From: a virus
Strand: one strand, 5' to 3'
IMG/VR virus record: IMGVR_UViG_3300045988_099631
Span: 32,001 to 96,000 of that record
DNA: 64,000 bases
In this document: piece after piece, positions 42,428 to 57,542 of the stretch
Layout: each line of letters begins with the position of its first letter
Position numbering within the stretch: position 1 is the stretch's first letter
Program-made: the position numbers and the translations under genes
Notes under the pieces: generated by a model
Told to the model about the DNA's origin: nothing
Databases searched by the model: none
The model's input: the letters and a program-made list of their open reading frames with translations, nothing else

Positions 42428-43768
42428 TTATTTTAAAAAAGCGTATAGGATTTCAGCGTGGATATTCTCCCGCCTAACCTTTGCGTGAATTGAACTAGGC
42501 TGTATTTCCACTATTTCAGCATGATATGTCATGCCTGCGTCCATCTTCGGTGCGTAGACAGCCGCCCAATCTCCAGAAATATGACCAACTGGGAATCCAC
42601 AGGAGTTTTTCACTAATATTGCATTTTTGTCGTATTTGTTTTCGGGTTCTCGTTCAAGAATAAGCGAGTCACCGACAGTGAGATTTTTCAAGGTGTCTTT
42701 ACTGGCGCAGAATTTCATTCCTACAATACTCACAGTTTCCACAACCAGTTTCGCCTTTTCATTTCCTTCCCATCCGGCTATTTGTCCAGAGTATTTAGAT
42801 TGGATTGTATAGTACATATCGCTGTCCAGAGGTAGCACCGTTAGCTCCGGGTGATTTTTTTGCAATAACATAACCTTTTTGCGGCTTTCGTTTCCCCAAT
42901 AGCCTTTTACTTCTACAATAACGCTATTCGGCAAGAAAAAATCCGGTGTATAGCATAGTCCTTCCCCAAGATCAAACATTTCTCGTTCATATTCGTATGG
43001 AATATGTTTTGACCTCAAGAGCCTAGCAATATTAGCTTCCCACGAACTGCGCAGCGCTTGATCGAGGTCTATCCGAAAGCCTATGTTATATTTCTGAGAT
43101 TTATAGTCATCATAGCTTGTAGTTACAATCCGGATTTTACCGCGTTCATCTATGACCTCGATGCACGGAACCCCATTCCTGTGTAGAATTTCTTCTACAG
43201 GCTTGTTGTGATTACTATGCTGCACAAACCATCGTGCGAAGCAATCATCCTCTTTTCGGAGAGTATATGACCAATCAGGTGTATTTGGAACCTGAGCAAT
43301 TTCTACATTTTCTCCGCAGTATTTCTTACAAATAGCAGTCACCGTCTGTACATAGTTGCTTGGAAAACATATGTAGTTATATGTTTTCGTCAAATCACAG
43401 ATATAAGGTATTGAATCTATACTTTCCCAAGTGCGGTCCCCCCATAATTTTCTTTTTACGGATACAGAAAATTCATCATGTTCGTGCAGGTAGTTACGGA
43501 AAATGTCTCTATACTCGGCAAAAAACCAATCATCGTTTTCGTTGCGACGACGTATATCGACATACCGAATAATCGATATTCCGTCTTCGCTTCGTATGAC
43601 ATTTAGAAACCTAGCGTTATTTCTATGGAGCAAATCAAGATATCTTGCAAGCAATTCGTTTGGAACTTGGTCTGTATGTTCCCATATAAAATACTGCTCA
43701 GTTTTTACACCATATTCAGATTCAATGCACTGCGCCAGCATTTCTCCAACGTGCGTTTCCTTTTCCAT
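42428..43768 (-). CDS. PD-(D/E)xK nuclease plus C-terminal HIRAN-domain protein (candidate defence moron)
   Basis: SWEANIARLL...IPYEYE...YTPDFFLPNSVIVEVKGYW, which is a D...E-x-K nuclease core. The C-terminus (IVGMKF...LTVGDSLILEREPENKYDKNAILVKN...PVGHISGDWAAVYAPKMDAG) is a HIRAN pattern. Opposite strand and visibly AT-richer than its neighbours. Confidence 0.6.
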   Translation of the reverse strand: MEKETHVGEMLAQCIESEYGVKTEQYFIWEHTDQVPNELLARYLDLLHRNNARFLNVIRSEDGISIIRYVDIRRRNENDDWFFAEYRDIFRNYLHEHDEFSVSVKRKLWGDRTWESIDSIPYICDLTKTYNYICFPSNYVQTVTAICKKYCGENVEIAQVPNTPDWSYTLRKEDDCFARWFVQHSNHNKPVEEILHRNGVPCIEVIDERGKIRIVTTSYDDYKSQKYNIGFRIDLDQALRSSWEANIARLLRSKHIPYEYEREMFDLGEGLCYTPDFFLPNSVIVEVKGYWGNESRKKVMLLQKNHPELTVLPLDSDMYYTIQSKYSGQIAGWEGNEKAKLVVETVSIVGMKFCASKDTLKNLTVGDSLILEREPENKYDKNAILVKNSCGFPVGHISGDWAAVYAPKMDAGMTYHAEIVEIQPSSIHAKVRRENIHAEILYAFLK

Positions 43769-43835
43769 AAAATTTCCTCCGTTCAATGTTCAAACAATTT
43801 TTATCAGCGATAGAATTCGTTCGTATTCTTCGAGC

Positions 43836-45367: not shown

Positions 45368-46471
45368 ATGGAATATTCCTACAAATTTAGGCTGTGCCCA
45401 AATGCGGCTCAGAGAAACTTAATACAGCGCACTTTCGGCTGTGCTCGATTTGTGTATAACCACTTTCTTTCTGAACGCATTGCGCAGTATCGAGAAACTG
45501 GGAAATCTCCTACACGATTTCAGCAGGATAAGGAACTCACTGTACTCAAGCAGAAACTCGGATGGCTGCAAGAGCCAGATAAATGCGCCTTGCAAAATGC
45601 TGTGAGGAATTTAGACGCCGCATATAAGAACTTTTTTCGCCGAGTAAAGAACGGTGAGAAGCCCGGTTTTCCAAAGTTCAAAAGCAAGCGCAACCACAGA
45701 CAGAGCTATAAGTCAAATGGTAGCATCAGAGTTTTTGACAATGCAGTTCAACTGCCGAAACTGGGAAAAGTCAAATGCCGTATCAGTCGAAAGGTTGAGG
45801 GTAGAATCCTCTCTGCCACAGTATCACAGAATCCAAGCGGCAAATATTTCGTATCACTCTGCTGCACTGACGTTGAAATCGAGCCATTGCCGAAGACCGG
45901 TGCTGTGATCGGCGTTGATATGGGACTGAAAGCGTTCGCAATCACGTCCGAAGGGATGGAATACCAGAACCAGCGCTATTTAGCCAAGAACCAGAAGAAA
46001 CTTGCCAGATTGCAACGGCAACTCTCCCGAAAATCAAAGGGGAGTAACCGGCGCGAAAAAGCGAGGATTCAGGTGGCACGGCTGCATGAGCATATCACAA
46101 ACCAGCGCAGCGACATGATGCACAAGCTGTCAACACAGCTCATTCGTGAGAATGATGTGATCTGCATCGAAGACTTAGAACCGAAGAACATGGTCAAGAA
46201 CCATAATCTAGCGAAGTCTATCAACGACGCAGCGTGGGGCGAGTTCAGGCGGCAGCTGGAGTACAAGGCCGCGTGGTACGGGAAGAAAGTCATACAGATT
46301 GACCGGTTCTTCCCTTCTAGCCAGTTATGTTCCTGCTGCGGGTATCGGAATACCGATACGAAGAATCTGGCCGTGCGTGAATGGACGTGCCCTGAATGTG
46401 GGATACACCATGACCGGGATGTAAATGCCGCAAAGAACATTTTGAGTGAGGGCTTGCGCCTGTTGGCCTAG
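45368..46471 (+). CDS. tnpB: TnpB RNA-guided endonuclease (OrfB_IS605 plus zinc ribbon)
   Basis: N-terminus [13 protein letters not shown]. RuvC residues in [14 protein letters not shown] and [11 protein letters not shown]. Zinc finger CSCCGY...CPECG. Confidence 0.85.
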
Positions 46472-46596
46472 TCTAAACATACGGTAGGGCGGGACACGCC
46501 CGAACCTATACGCTCGTGGAGACTATGTAAGACGCAACTACGGCGCGGCAGTCGGCGAAACGAGAATCCCCCGGATTTAGCCGTGGGGAGTGTCAC
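46330..46596 (+). ncRNA. expected omega/reRNA of TnpB (3' end of tnpB to the right end); the extent is a guess
   Basis: By analogy with known TnpB systems. The structured GC-rich tail 46472-46596 ends at the inferred right end. Confidence 0.35.
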
Positions 46597-48194: not shown

Positions 48195-48467
48195 ATGACC
48201 TTTAGAGATTTCTGTACAGGCTTCCGCGATTACTGGCCGAACTTCGTTGCAAAGCACTGGAACTTCTCACAGTGCAGAAACGGATACAGTGCCGGGTACA
48301 CGCCGAAATATCCAGAAAAGACAGCAGCGGATTTCGACGTATTTTATAACACTTGCGACGGCTCATGGACACTCTACGCCGAAACAGCGTGCGTCCCGAT
48401 TATAAGAAGGTTTGAATCCTTCGACAAACTTGCGAAGCAGGCTTGTGAACCCGCAAAATGCCCGTAA
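48195..48467 (+). CDS. hypothetical protein
   Basis: Trimmed to MTFRDFCTGF. Confidence 0.4.
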   Translation: MTFRDFCTGFRDYWPNFVAKHWNFSQCRNGYSAGYTPKYPEKTAADFDVFYNTCDGSWTLYAETACVPIIRRFESFDKLAKQACEPAKCP

Positions 48468-48504
48468 GTTCCCGCAAGATACCCGCAAAAAGCGTAGATT
48501 TTCC

Positions 48505-48583: not shown

Positions 48584-49297
48584 ATGGCAAAGGCAACTAA
48601 GGAAGCACAGGAGACCAAGGCGATCAGACGGTACATCAAGCTCACGTTCATTGAGCCGGTGCTGGGCACCTGGCCGAGTAACGAGAATGTGGCGCGTGAC
48701 TTCATCGCGTCCAAGTCTCCGGACGCAAACACAATCGAAGATGAGGTCGCAGCGATTGGTGCGGAAGCTGTGGCTGATAAGGCAATGACGGTATTCCCCC
48801 GTGTCGATGGCAAGCCCGTATTCTGGGATTACCAGATTAAAGGATTTTTCAAAGACACTTGCAGCGCCCTCGCCCGTGCCAAGTACACAAAGTCCAGCGG
48901 CCTGAAAGCATTCAAGAAGGTCATCGACGGTATGATCTTCCCCTTCCCCCGCGCAATTTCCATCAACGTCAACGGAGAAATCGGCGAATGCCAGCGGCCG
49001 CTCCGTGCGCAGACTGCGCAGGGTGAGCGTGTGAGCCTCGCAAACTCCGAGGAAATCCCGGCTGGAAGCACGATTCAGTTCGGCGTAACACTCGCAGACC
49101 CGGCGCACGAAGCACTGCTGATGGAGTGGCTGGACAATGGGTTCTTCCGTGGTCTCGGTCAGTGGCGTAACTCTGGCAAGGGCCGATTCGTCTACAAGAT
49201 GCTCGACGAGGAAGGCAACAACCTCGGCGGCACAGCAGAGAAATTCGGTTACATGATGCAGGAGGCGAACTTCTTCCCGGAGGAAAAGGCGGGCTGA
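48584..49297 (+). CDS. hypothetical protein with a RAMP-like glycine-rich loop
   Basis: 237 aa. Has an N-terminal beta-like YIKLTFIEPVLGT and a C-terminal FFRGLGQWRNSGKGRF. Family not recognised. Confidence 0.5.
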   Translation: MAKATKEAQETKAIRRYIKLTFIEPVLGTWPSNENVARDFIASKSPDANTIEDEVAAIGAEAVADKAMTVFPRVDGKPVFWDYQIKGFFKDTCSALARAKYTKSSGLKAFKKVIDGMIFPFPRAISINVNGEIGECQRPLRAQTAQGERVSLANSEEIPAGSTIQFGVTLADPAHEALLMEWLDNGFFRGLGQWRNSGKGRFVYKMLDEEGNNLGGTAEKFGYMMQEANFFPEEKAG

Positions 49298-49339
49298 TAG
49301 GCCCGCCGAACGGGGCGATGGAAACGCGTCGAGCGGCAT

Positions 49340-50300
49340 GGCCTAGATTGGCATCGCAAAGGAGCAGCAATGCTCAGCAATGCTCAGCACAGCAAAGGAA
49401 AAGCGGAGTGAGGCAGCGCCGGGCGGAGTGGGGCCAGGCATAGCAGCGGAGAGGTGGAGCGCCGCACAGTCAAGAACTGCATAGGGCAGGCTGAGTTCTG
49501 TTTTGGAACCAGAAGAACAGCAGAGGCTTTGCGGGGCGATGCGTATCTCGGCAACGCAATGGCTTAGTGGGGTGTCGCAATGCGCAGCGGAGGCGAGGCA
49601 AAGTACGGTCTAGCAAGGTATAGCAAAGGAATGGCAAAGTAAAGAGTCGCCGCGCACAGAAACGCAAGGGCGATGTGGGGGTTAGCGACGGGAAGCAAAG
49701 GACTTGCTCAGCCTCGCACTGCCCGGCAATGGAACAGCAAAGAAATGCGCTGGTTAGCAACGGAAACGCGAAGCGCTGTCTTGCGTTGAAATGGCGTTGA
49801 AATGGCGATGGAATTGCACGGATTCGCATGGCACAGCAATGGAAGTGTACCGACCAGATAATCATAGCGACGGTGAGGATAAGAACGGCTTAGAAACGCA
49901 TCGGAAGTGTATCGCGCAGTCAAGCAGAGCGGCGGATTAGTTGAGCAACGGGTAGCCATGGAACAGCGGATCGGAGTTTAGTAGAGCTATGGAAAGGCAA
50001 GGTGAGGTCTGGCCAGGGAATGCAATGGCAAAGCGCGGTGACGGCATAGCGTGGTTTTGATTAGCAACGGCTGGGCGGCGATACGGATTGAGTCGTTACG
50101 CGGTGAAACGGCATGGCAAGGAATGGAAGTGTTTGGAGTTGTGCAGCATTGGAGTGGTGCAGGTTGGCTACGTCTAGCAGTGAAATGCAAAGGAAAAGCA
50201 ATGTTCTGAGGGGCCGTGAAAAGGATATGCGTTGCGAATCAAAGCGGAGCAAAGCAAAGGATATGCGCAGCGCGGAAATGCGTGGCAAAGCAAAGGAGAG
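49340..50300 (+). repeat. ORF-free purine-rich tract with 14 same-strand copies of GCAA[A/T/C]GG
   Basis: Copies counted by eye at 49356, 49392, 49556, 49623, 49695, 49726, 49757, 49836, 49945, 50022, 50064, 50187, 50254 and 50290. AGCGG occurs 6 times. Confidence 0.7.
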
Positions 50301-50304
50301 GCAG

Positions 50305-50349
50305 GTTGACATAAGAATGGGAAAAAACATTTGCCCCTTGGAGTATAAT
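50305..50349 (+). promoter_or_regulatory. class-A promoter: conserved 29-mer (50305-50333) plus TATAAT 32 nt downstream of its TTGACA
   Basis: GTTGACATAAGAATGGGAAAAAACATTTG, then TATAAT at 50344-50349, an AAGGAGG RBS and the ATG at 50373. Confidence 0.55.
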
Positions 50350-50372
50350 GAAAAATGTAAGGAGGATTTCAT

Positions 50373-51461
50373 ATGGGATTTCCAAGCGCCTATGAAAAAT
50401 TCCGGTCAGCAATGATTGCATACGAAGAAAACCTTCGAGCGATAGGCCGTTCTGAAACAACAATTCAAAACGAAGAGTTTGTGTTCAAAATGTTTTCCGA
50501 TTTCATGCTGGAAAACAAATTGTGGGACAGACGCGAAGAAAGCTTCACGGACATTCAAGCATGGCGAGATCAGCTGCGTAGGGATGGCAAGAAACCAACT
50601 ACAATCAGGCAATACCTGACGGTTCTTTCCGCACTCTACAATTTCGCTTCATCTGACGAATTGGGGGAAAACCGATGGTATGACAGAAATCCAGTTTCAA
50701 AACTCCTGATGCCAGACACAAGGAAATTGGAGAAACGCCCGTATGATCAGCTTCTGACCGACGAACAGGTTTTGCTGCTATGGAGGAATAATCCACCGAA
50801 AGGACTCAAGCGTCCATATCTCTGGCCGAGAAACTACGCCATTGTTATTTTGCTTCTGACAACAGAAATCAGAAACAGTGAACTTCTGGTGCTCACGCCG
50901 AACGACTTGGATTGGGAAAACTCGGAGCTGACCGTTGAGCACGGAAAGGGAGACAAGTTCCGCCCAGTTGACTTCCCTATTCTTGCGCAGACAGCCGTTC
51001 GTATGTACTTAAATAGCGGAATCCGGCCTGAGACCGCTGGAAATAGCGGCCCACTTTTCGGGACAGAAGCAACCTTCGAGTTTAAGGGTGACAATAAGGG
51101 TGAGGAATGGCACGCAGGGACTCGGCAATGGCTGTCAGACGTCGTTCGGAGGCATGTAAAGGCTGTCACTGGTGTAGACATGATTCGTTCCCACGATCTG
51201 CGGCATGTCGGAGCAAGGCTCGATCTGAACAGTGGAATGACTTTTGAGGAACTGCAAGCAAAGCTTGGACATGAGTCAGTTTCAACTACGCAGATCTATT
51301 CAGGCAAGCTGACAAGCCGCAAGAACAGACGCATGACCAAGGCGGTACAAGAAGAAAAAGAACGTCAGGCGCAGAGAAATATAGACCGTTTGGAGGCAGC
51401 GGGAGATAATTTTTTCGGAAATCTCCGGTTGAAACAGATTCCCCAGCCGGAGATAGCCTAA
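50373..51461 (+). CDS. tyrosine recombinase / integrase 2 (XerC/D-like)
   Basis: SAM-like N-domain. Catalytic RNSEL...HGKGDKFR...HDLRHVGA...LGHESVSTTQIYSG. Confidence 0.8.
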   Translation: MGFPSAYEKFRSAMIAYEENLRAIGRSETTIQNEEFVFKMFSDFMLENKLWDRREESFTDIQAWRDQLRRDGKKPTTIRQYLTVLSALYNFASSDELGENRWYDRNPVSKLLMPDTRKLEKRPYDQLLTDEQVLLLWRNNPPKGLKRPYLWPRNYAIVILLLTTEIRNSELLVLTPNDLDWENSELTVEHGKGDKFRPVDFPILAQTAVRMYLNSGIRPETAGNSGPLFGTEATFEFKGDNKGEEWHAGTRQWLSDVVRRHVKAVTGVDMIRSHDLRHVGARLDLNSGMTFEELQAKLGHESVSTTQIYSGKLTSRKNRRMTKAVQEEKERQAQRNIDRLEAAGDNFFGNLRLKQIPQPEIA

Positions 51462-51775: not shown

Positions 51776-51849
51776 GTGCGTGTAGTTTAATGGCAGAACC
51801 TCAGACTTCCAATCTGATGGTGGGAGTTCGATTCTCCTCACGCACTCCA
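51776..51849 (+). tRNA. tRNA-Gly (anticodon TCC), CCA encoded
   Basis: Hand fold: acceptor GTGCGTG/CACGCAC, anticodon arm TCAGA-CTTCCAA-TCTGA, T-arm GGGAG-TTCGATT-CTCCT. Confidence 0.8.
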
Positions 51850-54407: not shown

Positions 54408-54484
54408 AGGGGTATCGCCAAGCGGTCTAAGGCATGGGACTTTGACTCCCATATTCGCAGGTTCAAATCCTGCTACCCCTGCCA
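54408..54484 (+). tRNA. tRNA-Gln (anticodon TTG), CCA encoded
   Basis: Hand fold: acceptor AGGGGTA/TACCCCT, anticodon arm TGGGA-CTTTGAC-TCCCA, T-arm GCAGG-TTCAAAT-CCTGC. Confidence 0.8.
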
Positions 54485-55465: not shown

Positions 55466-55540
55466 GGGCCGTTAGCTCAACGGTAGAGCAAGCCGCTCAT
55501 AACGGCTCGGTCGTAGGTTCGACACCTACACGGCCCACCA
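55466..55540 (+). tRNA. tRNA-Met/Ile2-type (anticodon CAT), CCA encoded
   Basis: Hand fold: acceptor GGGCCGT/ACGGCCC, D-arm GCTC-AACGGTA-GAGC, anticodon arm AGCCG-CTCATAA-CGGCT, T-arm GTAGG-TTCGACA-CCTAC. Confidence 0.85.
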
Positions 55541-55899: not shown

Positions 55900-56445
55900 A
55901 TGCAGGATATAAGAATCCATCGGGGCGACATTTTCTGGGTTCGTCAGGACTATGCTGCTGTCGGTTCAGAAACGAGAAAGAATCGCCCAGCAATCATTGT
56001 CAGCAACGATAAGAACAATACATATTCCGAAACTGTAGAAATAGTTTATCTTACAACTGCCGAGAAAAAGCCGATGCCTACACACGTTTCCATTGAAACG
56101 ATGGGCAAGCAATCTACTGCGCTTTGTGAGGCTGTCTACACAGTTGACAAGGAACGTTTGGAAAACTATTTTTGCACGCTGACAGCTGACGAAATGAAAC
56201 TTGTTGACCAGGCTGTTCTTGTCTCCCTAGGGCTTACCGCCACTCCGACCTGCATCGTAGGTGTATCCCAATCGTTGGAATCAGAAAAGGTACGCGTTCC
56301 GCTCAACGAGCCATTCGGATTAGAAGACGCATATCGTGTGATTCAGAAGGAACGCGATACGTTGCTTGCACAGAAAGAAATCTATGAGAAGATCTGCGCC
56401 GCTACGCTGCCGTGTTGGCCGAAGGAGGGTGAGTTGGGCGTATGA
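55900..56445 (+). CDS. MazF/PemK-family toxin domain with about 65-aa C-terminal extension
   Basis: RGDIFWV...GSETRKNRPAIIVSND...PTHVSI...ALCEAVYTVDKERL. No upstream antitoxin-like ORF. Confidence 0.7.
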   Translation: MQDIRIHRGDIFWVRQDYAAVGSETRKNRPAIIVSNDKNNTYSETVEIVYLTTAEKKPMPTHVSIETMGKQSTALCEAVYTVDKERLENYFCTLTADEMKLVDQAVLVSLGLTATPTCIVGVSQSLESEKVRVPLNEPFGLEDAYRVIQKERDTLLAQKEIYEKICAATLPCWPKEGELGV

Positions 56446-57542
56446 TTTATCTCGATCATGCTGCTACTTCGCCCCCACTTCAATGCGCAAAGATCGCCTT
56501 CAATGCAGCATCAACGGCAGCGTGGGGGAATCCAAACTCTTTACATTCTTTTGGGCAAAGTGCCAGAAATGCGTTGGAAGCTTCCCGTGAAGCTGTAGCG
56601 CAGTGCTTAAAGTGCGACTCAGATCAAGTGTTCTTCGTTTCCTCTGCAACAGAAGCTTGCAGGATTGCAATCACGAGAATGACGGAAGCATGTAAAAAAA
56701 TCTATGTAACGAAAATAGAACATGCAGCCGTAACCAGCATAACAGACCGCAAGGTATATAGTGACCGCCGGGATGGTAATCGTGGTTTCGTGCATATTCA
56801 CACCAACAACGAAACCGGTGAAATCTATGATTTGAGAAGTGCCTTTTCAGGGTATGATTTGACGTTCTCCGACTGTACCGCAGCCATGGGGAAGCAAAAA
56901 ATCAACTTCCGTGAAAGCGGAATAGACTTCATTTGCGGAGGTGGTCACAAGTTTGGTGCTCCGATTGGAATCGGCGTGTTGATCGCGCGAAATCCGGAAG
57001 CAATCACAACGAATTTTCATTTTGGAACGCCTTCTGCTCCACTCGCAGCCGCATTTGCAGAAGCGTTAGTGTTCAGGACAGACCATATAGAAGAGTTCAA
57101 AAATGCAGCAGCCACCTTGCATGACCGCCTGATTGATGGTATCATGAACGAAGTACCGGACGCACAGCTTAATGGGCTGCTTTACAAGGGAAATGAAATC
57201 ATGCAATCTCCGTACATTGCAAACGTTTCCTTCCCGAACATCGAGAACCACGCACTTGTCCTGCGTCTTGCGGCTGACGGATTGATGGTTTCATCCGGTG
57301 CGGCGTGTTCTAGCGGAGATAACGCCCCGTCCCGTGTGCTTCTCGCTTCCGGATATTCTGAGGAACGCGCACGTTCGGCCATCCGGTTCAGTTTCGATTA
57401 CAAACTCGACCCGAATGCAAATGATATGGGCTATAACTGCGGGCTGAACCTCGAACGATATATCAAAATCGTTGATGACGCAGTAAAAATCGTGGCACGG
57501 AATGTGCGGGAAATGCGGGAAATCGTATCATGCAGAGGCTAA
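56442..57542 (+). CDS. class-V aminotransferase / cysteine desulfurase (NifS/IscS/DndA-like)
   Basis: IYLDHAATSPP, GGHKFGAPIGIGVL (PLP lysine) and SSGAACSSG (catalytic Cys). ATGA overlap with the MazF-like gene. Confidence 0.8.
   Translation: MIYLDHAATSPPLQCAKIAFNAASTAAWGNPNSLHSFGQSARNALEASREAVAQCLKCDSDQVFFVSSATEACRIAITRMTEACKKIYVTKIEHAAVTSITDRKVYSDRRDGNRGFVHIHTNNETGEIYDLRSAFSGYDLTFSDCTAAMGKQKINFRESGIDFICGGGHKFGAPIGIGVLIARNPEAITTNFHFGTPSAPLAAAFAEALVFRTDHIEEFKNAAATLHDRLIDGIMNEVPDAQLNGLLYKGNEIMQSPYIANVSFPNIENHALVLRLAADGLMVSSGAACSSGDNAPSRVLLASGYSEERARSAIRFSFDYKLDPNANDMGYNCGLNLERYIKIVDDAVKIVARNVREMREIVSCRG

What the first reader, a model, noticed from the sequence alone, without database searches (positions are those of the whole stretch)
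49340..50300. A 1-kb ORF-free, strongly purine-skewed tract packed with same-strand GCAA[A/T/C]GG motifs
The tract lies between the last class-B gene and the integrase-2 promoter and has no credible ORF. The + strand is mostly G and A. I count 14 copies of GCAA(A/T/C)GG, all in one orientation, where far fewer than one would be expected by chance. There are also recurring AATGGAAGTGT and AGCAACGG words and six AGCGG pentamers, which is the B. subtilis Chi sequence. It is not a CRISPR array because there are no regular repeats or spacers. Candidate roles are a protein-binding array (centromere, iteron or regulator sink), a Chi-like anti-AddAB/RecBCD decoy cluster, an R-loop-type origin, or a long purine-rich ncRNA.
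Basis: seen in the sequence. Interest (0 to 1): 0.72.

Follow-up and report, generated by a model that had tools for sequence, protein, structure and literature searches.

The report
Phage VIPR guide-RNA array (pentamer repeats)
The purine-rich "ORF-free" kilobase is a long array of 5-base repeats sitting right behind a small Cas7-like gene. This matches the VIPR RNA-guided DNA-silencing systems of phages first described in 2026 preprints, so it is real and interesting but no longer unexplained.

Summary
There are 14 same-strand GCAA[A/T/C]GG copies and none on the other strand, against 0.4-1.2 expected, and the tract is 64% purine.

The motif is only the most visible part of a stricter grammar. 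From the stop codon of ORF 48584-49297 to the integrase promoter (49298-50303), the DNA parses without a break into 167 pentamers and 32 hexamers. G sits at a fixed position in 95% of units. The period is 5.14 nt. One xxGCAA hexamer occurs every 4-7 pentamers, and GCAA|HGG marks those boundaries.

The upstream ORF folds as a single-domain Cas7-like RAMP with a G-rich loop. In at least 131 of 144 related loci, from gut phages and prophages of several phyla, the same kind of periodic tract lies next to this gene on the same strand. Unit content turns over even between phages with identical protein.

This is the anatomy of VIPR systems (bioRxiv 10.64898/2026.04.26.720920 and .720927). In those systems a Vipr RAMP polymerises one protomer per pentamer on a vrRNA and reads target DNA to silence competing phages. 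This locus fits the YNNNG-repeat, "staggered array" variant.

Transcription, processing and targets were not shown here, and my target searches were uninformative. The Chi, centromere and origin readings are not supported. Verdict: a new member of a known kind.

The parts
48584..49297 (+). vipr-like gene: a 237-aa single-domain Cas7-like RAMP protein with the C-terminal G-rich loop GLGQWRNSGKGRF.
   Evidence: Start and annotation: ATG preceded by GGAGG. No Pfam, PHROG, NCBIfam or PADLOC family.

Sequence: the profile hits the G-loop of Csm4 and type VII Cas7, E 3e-3.

Structure: AF2 model pLDDT 80, pTM 0.77. Foldseek vs PDB gives type VII Cas7, Csm3/Cmr4 and Cas7-11, E 1e-7 to 1e-5, prob 1.0. 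The BFVD top hit is named 'Cas system-associated RAMP superfamily protein'.

Relatives: more than 7,800 homologous 90%-identity clusters.

Homology to a validated Vipr: HHalign to the phage SUSP1 Vipr family gives prob 26-53%, E 1e-4 to 7e-4. It is colinear over 172-181 columns when the alignment threshold is relaxed.
49288..49307 (.). GC-rich stem-loop (GGCGGGC-tgatag-GCCCGCC) that spans the vipr stop codon. No T-run follows on the + strand, so it would not terminate read-through into the array. On the - strand it looks like an intrinsic terminator.
   Evidence: Read directly from the sequence. Listed as a - strand terminator-like site. No + strand terminator lies between the gene and the integrase. 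The hairpin is present only in the long-C-terminus clade.
49298..50303 (+). vrRNA-like array: 167 pentamers plus 32 hexamers in one unbroken register. The unit consensus is N-N-G-(C/A)-N, which is YNNNG in the register of the VIPR paper. An xxGCAA hexamer occurs every 4-7 pentamers, giving about 31 guide-like units of mostly 31, 36 or 41 nt. Each unit begins HGG after GCAA.
   Evidence: Viterbi parse: only 5- and 6-nt units are needed. G is at position 3 in 95% of units (dinucleotide shuffles 68%, max 74%). Score is +0.22/nt vs -0.135 +/- 0.014 in shuffles; the flanking coding sequences score -0.17 to -0.20.

Model-free check: in 19 non-redundant tracts, GCA-GCA distances are almost only 5/6, 10/11 ... 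31, 36, 41. The Fourier peak is at 5.14 nt.

Uniqueness: it is the only such array in the window.

Other tests: no Rfam family. The RNA folds no better than shuffles, z = +0.72.

Positive control: the same scan recovers the published SUSP1 vrRNAs as the top windows of 50 kb.
49352..49362 (+). First strict boundary motif, TCGCAA|AGGAG (hexamer followed by HGG). The other 13 strict GCAA[ATC]GG copies start at 49392, 49556, 49623, 49695, 49726, 49757, 49836, 49945, 50022, 50064, 50187, 50254 and 50290. Degenerate boundaries (GCAG, GCAT, GCGA, GAAA) make up the remaining hexamers.
   Evidence: Across relatives the boundary G..GG positions are almost invariant: substitution rates are 0.003-0.018 vs about 0.10 at the N positions. 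Nearest-neighbour spacings of the motif are 26, 31, 36 and 41 nt.
49396..49446 (+). Longest single guide-like unit of the window: 9 pentamers plus hexamer (AGGAA AAGCG GAGTG AGGCA GCGCC GGGCG GAGTG GGGCC AGGCA TAGCAG).
49447..49559 (+). Three units that are conserved almost base for base among close relatives, while the flanking units are gained, lost or replaced. This block includes the only T-rich stretch of the array (GAGTT CTGTT TTGGA ACCAG AAGAA).
   Evidence: Alignment of 16 related arrays. The block still parses in register.

Best explanation
ORF 48584-49297 and the tract 49298-50303 together form a VIPR (Viral Interference Programmable Repeat) locus.

The ORF encodes a Vipr-type RAMP protein. 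The tract is its array of vrRNA guides, built of tandem pentanucleotide repeats.

How it most likely works, by analogy with the characterised phage SUSP1 system:
1. The array is transcribed together with vipr from the early operon.
2. Vipr protomers polymerise on the RNA, one protomer per pentamer. Each protomer clamps the invariant G (and the following C/A) in its G-loop/thumb pocket and exposes the variable bases.
3. The exposed bases of consecutive repeats read a gapped sequence in double-stranded DNA.
4. Binding silences genes of competing phages or prophages.

Features specific to this family:
- The repeat is the relaxed YNNNG form rather than YNNGG.
- The array is continuous. It is punctuated every 4-7 pentamers by an xxGCAA hexamer followed by HGG. 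I read these points as the boundaries of about 31 short guides of 26-41 nt (the 'staggered array' layout).

Shown here: the repeat grammar, the RAMP fold, the conserved adjacency and co-orientation, and the rapid turnover of units.

Taken from the two preprints: the filament, the reading of DNA and the inter-phage role.

Inferred only: transcription, processing at the hexamers, the exact reading rule and the targets.
For: (1) Repeat grammar. The period is 5.14 nt, with G fixed in 92-95% of units. Only 5- and 6-nt units are needed over 1 kb. The same scan finds the published SUSP1 vrRNAs.

(2) Partner protein. It is a small single-RRM Cas7-like RAMP with thumb and G-loop. It is weakly but colinearly related to SUSP1 Vipr.

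(3) Match between protein and RNA. In the G-loop alignment GLGQWR vs GVGDWR, the SUSP1 residues that hold G2 and Y3 (W178, R179) are kept as W194 and R195. The two that read G1 (H17, D177; paper .720927) are T29 and Q193 here. This fits an RNA consensus in which the first G is relaxed (41% G) and the second is near-invariant.

(4) Linkage. Of the neighbouring genes, only the RAMP gene is shared across all loci. A strong periodic tract lies next to it on the same strand in 131 of 144 loci: 125 downstream and 6 upstream. These include relatives down to 45% identity, from contigs labelled Oscillospiraceae, Faecalibacterium, Eggerthella, Synergistota and Acidobacteriota, most of them binned metagenome assemblies.

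(5) Guide-like evolution. Arrays range from about 160 to 1630 nt. They differ by whole units between phages with 100% identical protein. N positions change about 5 times faster than the G. The number of pentamers per hexamer peaks at 5 rather than following a geometric distribution (n = 2307).

(6) Context. Phage early/lysogeny region, with no cas genes, no CRISPR repeats and no Rfam family. This matches the paper's description of VIPR loci. The paper also lists YNNNG/NNNNG repeat variants and staggered arrays.
Against: - No expression or binding data exist for this locus or its clade.
- Sequence homology to a validated Vipr is marginal (HHalign prob 26-53%).
- The repeat is not the canonical GGY/NN.
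- Guide units are shorter than the characterised ones (5-8 repeats vs 9-16), and there is no 3' tail or pseudoknot.
- No vap accessory gene could be identified.
- No targets were found. In 1.5 Mb of flanks from related phages, no skip rule beat its controls. Two IMG/VR scans gave 2 and 0 hits, which I estimate to be about chance level (roughly 2-3 hits for 18 specified bases, the collection size being my assumption).
- The staggered layout is itself not experimentally confirmed in the paper.
- I could not see the paper's data tables, so I cannot say which of the seven types this is, or whether this clade is already in their set.
Confidence: 0.85

Rival explanations
1. The Cas7-like protein coats the periodic RNA, but the complex does not guide anything. 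Instead it could act as a decoy or sponge (for example against host type III CRISPR complexes or an RNA-binding protein), as a regulatory RNP, or as a protective scaffold.
For: The same anatomy fits this reading: RAMP fold, 5-nt phased G, co-orientation. The RNA is unstructured. The locus sits at the head of an early operon, where anti-defence genes often lie. No targets were found.
Against: The variable positions change fast and whole units turn over while the scaffold positions are held. That is the signature of specificity-bearing guides, not of a uniform sponge. The one experimentally studied relative of this architecture is a programmable DNA binder.
Confidence: 0.08
2. The tract acts as DNA: a Chi-like anti-AddAB/RecBCD decoy cluster, a centromere or iteron array, or a transcription-primed R-loop origin.
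For: There is strong strand asymmetry and G-richness on the non-template strand. The 5.14-nt period is half of about 10.3 bp, close to a helical repeat. Recombination and replication genes (SSB, Rad52-like) lie a few kb downstream in many relatives.
Against: AGCGG is not enriched. The tract always keeps the strand of the RAMP gene, whether it lies after or before it. The downstream genes differ between clades. 5 bp is too short a unit for a duplex-binding protein array. No par or rep gene is linked. Length and content vary freely between near-identical phages.
Confidence: 0.04
3. It is a decaying pentanucleotide microsatellite or a composition artefact with no function. Alternatively, it is a protein-coding region read with a reassigned TAG codon.
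For: Short 10-11-nt tandem duplications occur inside it. One + strand frame contains only TAG stops for about 700 nt.
Against: The register is held over 1 kb and in about 18,000 units from 145 loci, with only about 2% of units of another length in the 19 non-redundant tracts. The hexamer spacing is non-random. The tract is conserved next to one gene family across phyla. The period is 5.14 nt, not 3. The motif copies fall in all three frames (positions). Every frame has TGA or TAA stops as well. No suppressor tRNA is present.
Confidence: 0.02

Closest known systems
VIPR systems, type II prototype of Escherichia phage SUSP1 and the Pseudomonas fulva prophage (bioRxiv 10.64898/2026.04.26.720920 and 10.64898/2026.04.26.720927)
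   Same: - Phage-encoded small RAMP with one RRM, a thumb and the G-loop G-h-G-x-W-R...G-R-F.
- The adjacent non-coding DNA is made of tandem pentanucleotide repeats with fixed G and variable N positions.
- No cas genes and no CRISPR array.
- Variable positions and unit content evolve fast.
- The locus sits in a phage regulatory/early region.
   Different: - The repeat consensus is YNNNG (first G only 41%) rather than YNNGG. The two SUSP1 residues that read that G are replaced.
- There is one continuous array of about 1 kb (up to 1.6 kb in relatives) with about 31 units, instead of 1-4 discrete vrRNAs of about 100 nt.
- Units have 5-8 repeats, not 9-16.
- There is no 3' tail or pseudoknot. Instead a 1-nt register shift occurs at an xxGCAA|HGG boundary (period 5.14 vs 5.00).
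- No recognisable vap gene.
- The protein is only marginally similar in sequence.
VIPR 'staggered arrays' and YNNNG/NNNNG repeat variants, mentioned but not experimentally tested in the same preprint (fig. S17, S18; methods)
   Same: A continuous array in which the end of one unit is the start of the next, with a 1-nt offset. The repeat consensus is relaxed.
   Different: I could not view the figures or data tables. Identity with that class is therefore inferred from the legend text only.
Class 1 CRISPR-Cas backbone (Cas7/Csm3/Cmr4, type VII Cas7) on crRNA
   Same: The best structural matches of the protein. One RAMP subunit binds per short RNA segment, and a thumb flips bases at a fixed period.
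   Different: - The period is 6 nt in CRISPR complexes and 5 nt here.
- There are no repeat-spacer units, no Cas5/Cas6/Cas10/Cas1-2 and no acquired spacers.
- Specificity sits in interspersed positions of the repeats themselves.
TRAP-trp leader and TMV origin of assembly (periodic-G RNAs read by protein oligomers)
   Same: A base recurs at the spacing of one protein subunit (5-6 nt for TRAP, 3 nt for TMV coat protein).
   Different: The protein folds are unrelated, and those RNAs are single short sites, not arrays. This was only a conceptual lead that I considered before finding the VIPR papers.

Membership tests
VIPR system | A small (~20 kDa) stand-alone RAMP protein (Vipr) with a single RRM core, a thumb and a glycine-rich loop | tested here: met
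   237 aa here; most relatives are 194-209 aa. In the AF2 model, Foldseek prob 1.0 to Cas7-type RAMPs. G-loop GLGQWRNSGKGRF.
VIPR system | Sequence homology to an experimentally validated Vipr (SUSP1) | tested here: inconclusive
   HHalign of family profiles gives prob 26-53%, E 1e-4 to 7e-4. It is strongest over the last strand, helix and G-loop, and colinear over 172-181 columns only with a relaxed threshold. tblastn finds no SUSP1-type hit. The paper itself says RAMPs share little sequence similarity.
VIPR system | Adjacent non-coding region made of tandem pentanucleotide repeats on the strand of the gene | tested here: met
   (window). (131 of 144 loci). Positive control on SUSP1.
VIPR system | Repeat consensus GGY/NN (YNNGG) or one of the listed variants (NNNGG, YNNNG, NNNNG) | tested here: met
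   Canonical GGY is not met: the first G is only 41%. The variant YNNNG is met: G 92-95%; the next base is C 55%, T 12%, A 28%. The variants are listed in the paper's methods.
VIPR system | vrRNA of 9-16 repeats followed by a conserved structured 3' tail (type II) | tested here: not met
   Units have 4-7 pentamers plus one hexamer. There is no tail, no Rfam match and no excess structure. The paper allows other array layouts: staggered, ribozyme-separated or single.
VIPR system | vipr-accessory (vap) gene in the operon | tested here: inconclusive
   No neighbouring gene family is shared across clades. The upstream ORFs have no Pfam, NCBIfam, PHROG or PADLOC hit. SUSP1 vap1 also has no Pfam hit, so absence cannot be judged by profiles.
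VIPR system | Encoded by a phage or prophage, without cas genes or a CRISPR array | tested here: met
   IMG/VR viral contigs and prophage-like contexts, with CI-like repressor, integrase, Rha, SSB and Rad52-like genes. No Cas profile in the neighbours. No CRISPR-type repeats.
VIPR system | The repeat RNA is expressed and co-purifies with Vipr as a filament, one protomer per repeat | not testable with these tools
   Needs RNA-seq, pull-down or cryo-EM. The only indirect support is co-orientation, the absence of a + strand terminator and the residue/consensus match.
VIPR system | Variable bases match targets in competing phages under a gapped (1-nt skip) rule | tested here: inconclusive
   No enrichment over order-shuffled or reversed controls for any tested rule in 1.5 Mb of related-phage flanks. 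Two exact IMG/VR scans gave 2 and 0 hits, about the 2-3 I estimate for chance. The searches were exact-match only and the database was small.
CRISPR-Cas (type III / VII-like) | Array of identical 24-40-nt repeats separated by unique spacers, with Cas5, Cas6, Cas10 or adaptation genes | tested here: not met
   TRF finds only 10-11-nt micro-duplications. The only repeated element is a 7-nt boundary. No other cas-like gene is present.
Chi-site cluster (B. subtilis-type AGCGG) | Significant over-representation of the Chi word in one orientation | tested here: not met
   6 copies vs 2.3 expected, max 9 in 500 shuffles.
Known structured RNA families (Rfam 15: ROOL, GOLLD, ribozymes, group I/II introns) | Covariance-model match | tested here: not met
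   No hit at the gathering threshold in the window. No hit at E <= 5 in 49200-50420.

The most novel reading that the evidence does not exclude
This very abundant gut-phage clade may be a distinct VIPR type with its own code. It would have three variable bases per pentamer (YNNNG, with the first-G pocket lost through H->T and D->Q changes). Guides would be only about six repeats long, roughly one turn of the published six-subunit filament. They would be chained by a GCAA|HGG +1 boundary into arrays of 30 or more guides. If so, the published 'NN plus one skipped base' rule would not apply unchanged. The array would then be a phage-borne, rapidly reshuffled repertoire directed against rival gut phages.
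Probability: 0.3. Interest if true: 0.7.

Novelty: new member of a known kind. Interest (0 to 1): 0.5.

Why it matters
VIPR was described only in 2026, from NCBI records and two Proteobacteria-infecting model systems. This locus shows that the same logic is widespread in phages of human-gut Oscillospiraceae, Faecalibacterium and relatives.

- The arrays are much longer (about 31 guide-like units here, up to 1.6 kb in relatives) than in the characterised systems.
- It gives a concrete, sequence-defined example of the untested 'staggered' layout and of the relaxed YNNNG repeat.
- It supplies a testable structural reason for the relaxed repeat: the two residues that read the first G are replaced.

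If the guides can be decoded, they would map who fights whom among gut phages. The short one-protein system is also a candidate programmable DNA binder.

Tried and rejected
- TAG-recoded gene. One frame has only TAG stops for about 700 nt, but all frames also carry TGA/TAA stops. The motif falls in all three frames, the period is 5.14 not 3, and no suppressor tRNA is present.
- Known RNA families. No Rfam hit at gathering or at E <= 5. None in the L021 array either.
- Structured ncRNA. The fold z-score is +0.72.
- CsrA/GGA sponge, GNRA-tetraloop array and TRAP-like leader. I considered these from memory and dropped them once the RAMP partner and the VIPR papers were found.
- Degenerate CRISPR array. 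There is no repeat longer than the 7-nt boundary.
- Chi cluster. AGCGG is not enriched.
- Conserved accessory gene. All-vs-all clustering of neighbouring ORFs found only generic phage early genes: CI-like repressors, SSB and a family whose one tested member has a marginal Rad52/22 Pfam hit.
- Cultured phage carrying the family. None in INPHARED: four uncultured faecal records only.
- Target decoding in 1.5 Mb of related-phage flanks. I tried exact spaced-word searches for NN, NNN and NNNN read-outs with 0-3 skipped bases. The only enrichment was for the trivial period-5 patterns, which reflects residual array-array homology. The few period-3 and period-4 seeds did not extend.
- IMG/VR scans. 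Two scans with 18-specified-base NNx patterns gave 2 and 0 hits. The two hits share a peptide only because the pattern fixes the first two codon positions, and they lie in unrelated contexts.
- Supplementary tables of the VIPR paper are not held.
Full report
**1. Observation**

In 49340-50300 the + strand carries 14 GCAA[A/T/C]GG copies and the - strand none. Mononucleotide shuffles give 0.44 on average. Dinucleotide-preserving shuffles give 1.17, with a maximum of 7 in 2000. The other 63 kb of the window hold 14 + and 20 - copies.

The tract is 64.4% purine, the highest value of any kilobase in the window. AATGGAAGTGT (2), GGAAGTGT (3) and AGCAACGG (3) are + strand only. The six AGCGG copies are unremarkable: 2.3 expected, up to 9 in shuffles.

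All six reading frames are broken by stop codons. There is no tRNA and no Rfam family in the tract. The Chi part of it does not.

**2. What the motif really is**

I measured distances between GCA (or G, or GCAA) occurrences in 19 non-redundant homologous tracts (12.4 kb). They fall almost only on 5/6, 10/11, 15/16, 20/21, 25/26, 31, 36, 41, 46/47 and so on. The Fourier peak is at 5.14 nt. Nearest-neighbour spacings of GCAA.GG are 26, 31, 36 and 41 nt, then 62, 67, 72 and 77 nt.

A Viterbi parse that allows units of 4-7 nt splits those tracts as follows:

| Unit length | Count |
|---|---|
| 5 nt | 1979 |
| 6 nt | 372 |
| other | 50 |

Unit consensus:

| Position | Base frequencies |
|---|---|
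| 1 | any base |
| 2 | G 41% |
| 3 | G 92% |
| 4 | C 55%, A 28%, T 12% |
| 5 | any base |

The hexamers are NNGCAA.

In the window, the whole stretch from the stop codon of the upstream ORF (49298) to the integrase promoter (about 50303) parses as 167 pentamers plus 32 hexamers, with no other unit length:
- G is at position 3 in 95% of units. Dinucleotide shuffles give 68%, with a maximum of 74%.
- The score is +0.22/nt, against -0.135 +/- 0.014 for shuffles.
- The flanking coding sequences score -0.17 to -0.20.

GCAA|HGG is simply the junction of a hexamer with the next unit.

Across about 18,000 units from 145 loci, the number of pentamers between hexamers peaks at 5 and mostly lies in 4-7 (n = 2307). 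This is far from a geometric distribution. The array is therefore a chain of units of about 26-41 nt.

It is the only period-5 array in the window. As RNA it is no more structured than shuffled sequence (z = +0.72).

**3. The partner gene**

ORF 48584-49297 (237 aa, good RBS) has no Pfam, PHROG, NCBIfam or PADLOC family.

A profile of its homologues matches the glycine-rich loop of Csm4 and of type VII Cas7. An AlphaFold model (pLDDT 80, pTM 0.77) matches type VII Cas7, Csm3/Cmr4 and the Cas7 domains of Cas7-11, with Foldseek probability 1.0. In BFVD its closest relative is already labelled 'Cas system-associated RAMP superfamily protein'.

7,815 of the 8,000 scored candidates matched, in a capped search. 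Most are 194-209 aa.

**4. Linkage**

I fetched 80 IMG/VR loci (61-100% protein identity) and 80 loci from bacterial genomes and MAGs (45-70% identity). The contigs are labelled Oscillospiraceae, Faecalibacterium, other Clostridia, Eggerthella/Olsenella, Synergistota and even a Bryobacteraceae MAG; most are binned metagenome assemblies, so the labels are tentative.

- The RAMP gene is the only neighbourhood gene shared by all loci.
- A strong period-5 tract lies next to it on the same strand in 131 of 144 loci where I could call the ORF. It is downstream in 125 and directly upstream in 6.
- Most of the remaining loci have short or weak tracts, or too little flank.
- The genes beyond the tract differ between clades: integrase here, small membrane proteins, an SSB family and one with a marginal Rad52/22 hit elsewhere.

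Arrays run from about 160 to 1630 nt. They differ by whole units between phages whose protein is 100% identical (971-1481 nt).

Between homologous units the substitution rates are as follows:

| Position class | Substitution rate |
|---|---|
| Three N positions | 0.085-0.104 |
| C/A position | 0.068 |
| Phased G | 0.018 |
| Boundary G..GG | 0.003-0.018 |

**5. Identification**

A literature search found two 2026 bioRxiv preprints from one group.

[quoted passage not shown] It describes VIPR systems:
- They are mostly phage-encoded and have no cas genes or CRISPR array.
- Each has a ~20-kDa stand-alone RAMP (Vipr), usually one accessory gene, and flanking vrRNAs.
- The vrRNAs are made of 9-16 YNNGG pentanucleotide repeats.
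- The NN dinucleotides read double-stranded DNA with one skipped base per repeat.
- Binding represses competing phages and prophages.
- The methods list the repeat variants NNNGG, YNNNG and NNNNG.
[quoted passage not shown] This layout was not confirmed experimentally.

The second, companion structural paper (10.64898/2026.04.26.720927) shows:
- One Vipr protomer binds per repeat in a right-handed filament of six subunits per turn.
- G1 is read by H17 and D177.
- G2 is held by R138 and W178.
- Y3 sits in a pocket that includes R179.

The window's locus has this anatomy.

**6. Direct comparison with the prototype**

I fetched phage SUSP1 (KT454805). Its vipr gene (195 aa) and vrRNAs (GGYNN x11-12 plus a tail) are plain in the sequence. 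My period scan ranks them as the top windows in 50 kb, at a period of 5.00.

Profile-profile comparison of the two protein families is weak but consistent:
- Probability is 26-53%, and E is 1e-4 to 7e-4.
- The best-aligned part runs from the last beta-strand to the G-loop.
- The alignment is colinear over 172-181 columns with a relaxed alignment threshold.

In that alignment GLGQWRNSGKGRF pairs with GVGDWRPR-FGRF. W178 and R179 are kept as W194 and R195, both invariant. The two G1 readers are replaced: H17 by T29 and D177 by Q193. This matches the RNA consensus here, where the first G is relaxed and the second is nearly invariant. It is an inference from a low-confidence alignment.

**7. Differences from the characterised systems**

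| Feature | SUSP1 type II (published) | This locus |
|---|---|---|
| Repeat consensus | YNNGG | YNNNG |
| Repeats per unit | 9-16 | 5-8 |
| 3' tail or pseudoknot | present | absent |
| Array layout | discrete vrRNAs of ~100 nt | one continuous ~1-kb array with a +1 register shift at each xxGCAA\|HGG |
| Period | 5.00 nt | 5.14 nt |
| vap gene | vap1 present | none recognisable |

The modal unit here (five pentamers plus a hexamer, six repeats) equals one turn of the published binary filament. I note this only as a coincidence worth testing.

**8. What I could not show**

- **Transcription.** There is no + strand terminator between the gene and the integrase, but I have no RNA data.
- **Processing at the hexamers.** This is inferred only.
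- **Targets.** In 1.5 Mb of related-phage flanks, no read-out rule (NN, NNN or NNNN with 0-3 skipped bases) beat its controls, apart from the trivial period-5 self-similarity. The few seeds did not extend. Two exact IMG/VR scans returned 2 and 0 hits, about the 2-3 I estimate for chance. These searches were exact-match only and used a small database, so the result is uninformative rather than negative.

**9. Verdict**

The finding is real and highly non-random. It is best explained as a VIPR locus: a Vipr-like RAMP gene plus a staggered YNNNG vrRNA array (confidence about 0.85).

Rival readings are much less likely:
- A non-guiding RAMP-RNA complex.
- A DNA-level element (Chi decoy, centromere or origin).
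- Junk or a recoded gene.

The kind of system has been known since 2026, so I rate this as a new member of a known kind. There is a moderate chance (about 0.3) that this abundant gut clade uses a variant of the published code.

Noticed in passing
window 45368-46471 (+), right end to about 46650; L021 6029-6196: An IS605-family TnpB gene (HTH_OrfB_IS605 + OrfB_IS605 + Cas12f1-like TNB) lies 2 kb upstream of the VIPR locus. In relative L021, a ~168-nt insert inside the repeat array matches the region just downstream of the window's tnpB stop (46568-46590, 2 mismatches in 23). This looks like a TnpB-less right-end/omega-RNA fragment that has landed in the array.
   Followed up: partly
window 48450-48492 (+): Four direct CCCG(C/T)AA repeats at 11, 10 and 11-nt spacing sit about 90 nt upstream of the vipr start codon. 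They could be an operator or promoter-proximal site controlling the locus. I did not check them in relatives.
   Followed up: no
L067 5668-6195 (also L066, L068, L069, L074, L075): In one clade, a 175-aa ORF that looks by eye like an HNH/AP2-type homing endonuclease (no domain search was run on it) is inserted between an intact vipr gene and the array. It is followed by a duplicated remnant of the vipr 3' end (…SGKGRFSYEILN*).
   Followed up: partly
window 50373-51461, 51776-51849, 54408-54484, 55466-55540: A tyrosine integrase is followed within 315 nt by tRNA-Gly(TCC), then tRNA-Gln(TTG) and tRNA-Met(CAT). This could be a prophage/host junction at a tRNA gene, or a phage tRNA cluster. I did not resolve which.
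   Followed up: no
window 55900-56445 and 56442-57542 (+): A PemK/MazF-like toxin gene overlaps by 4 nt the start of a class-V aminotransferase-like gene. This is an unusual pairing.
   Followed up: no
window 42428-43786 (-): A 452-aa protein fuses a phage endonuclease I domain with a C-terminal HIRAN domain. The HIRAN part also matches the PADLOC candidate defence family PDC-M03B (E 8e-9).
   Followed up: no
window 50306-50372 (+): A perfect TTGACA and a perfect TATAAT lie ahead of the integrase but are 32 nt apart, too far for a standard sigma-70 promoter. The block is conserved in close relatives.
   Followed up: no
window 49288-49307: A 7-bp all-GC hairpin encloses the vipr stop codon. Read on the - strand it is followed by TTTTCC and scores as an intrinsic terminator. 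It could stop antisense transcription coming through the array.
   Followed up: no
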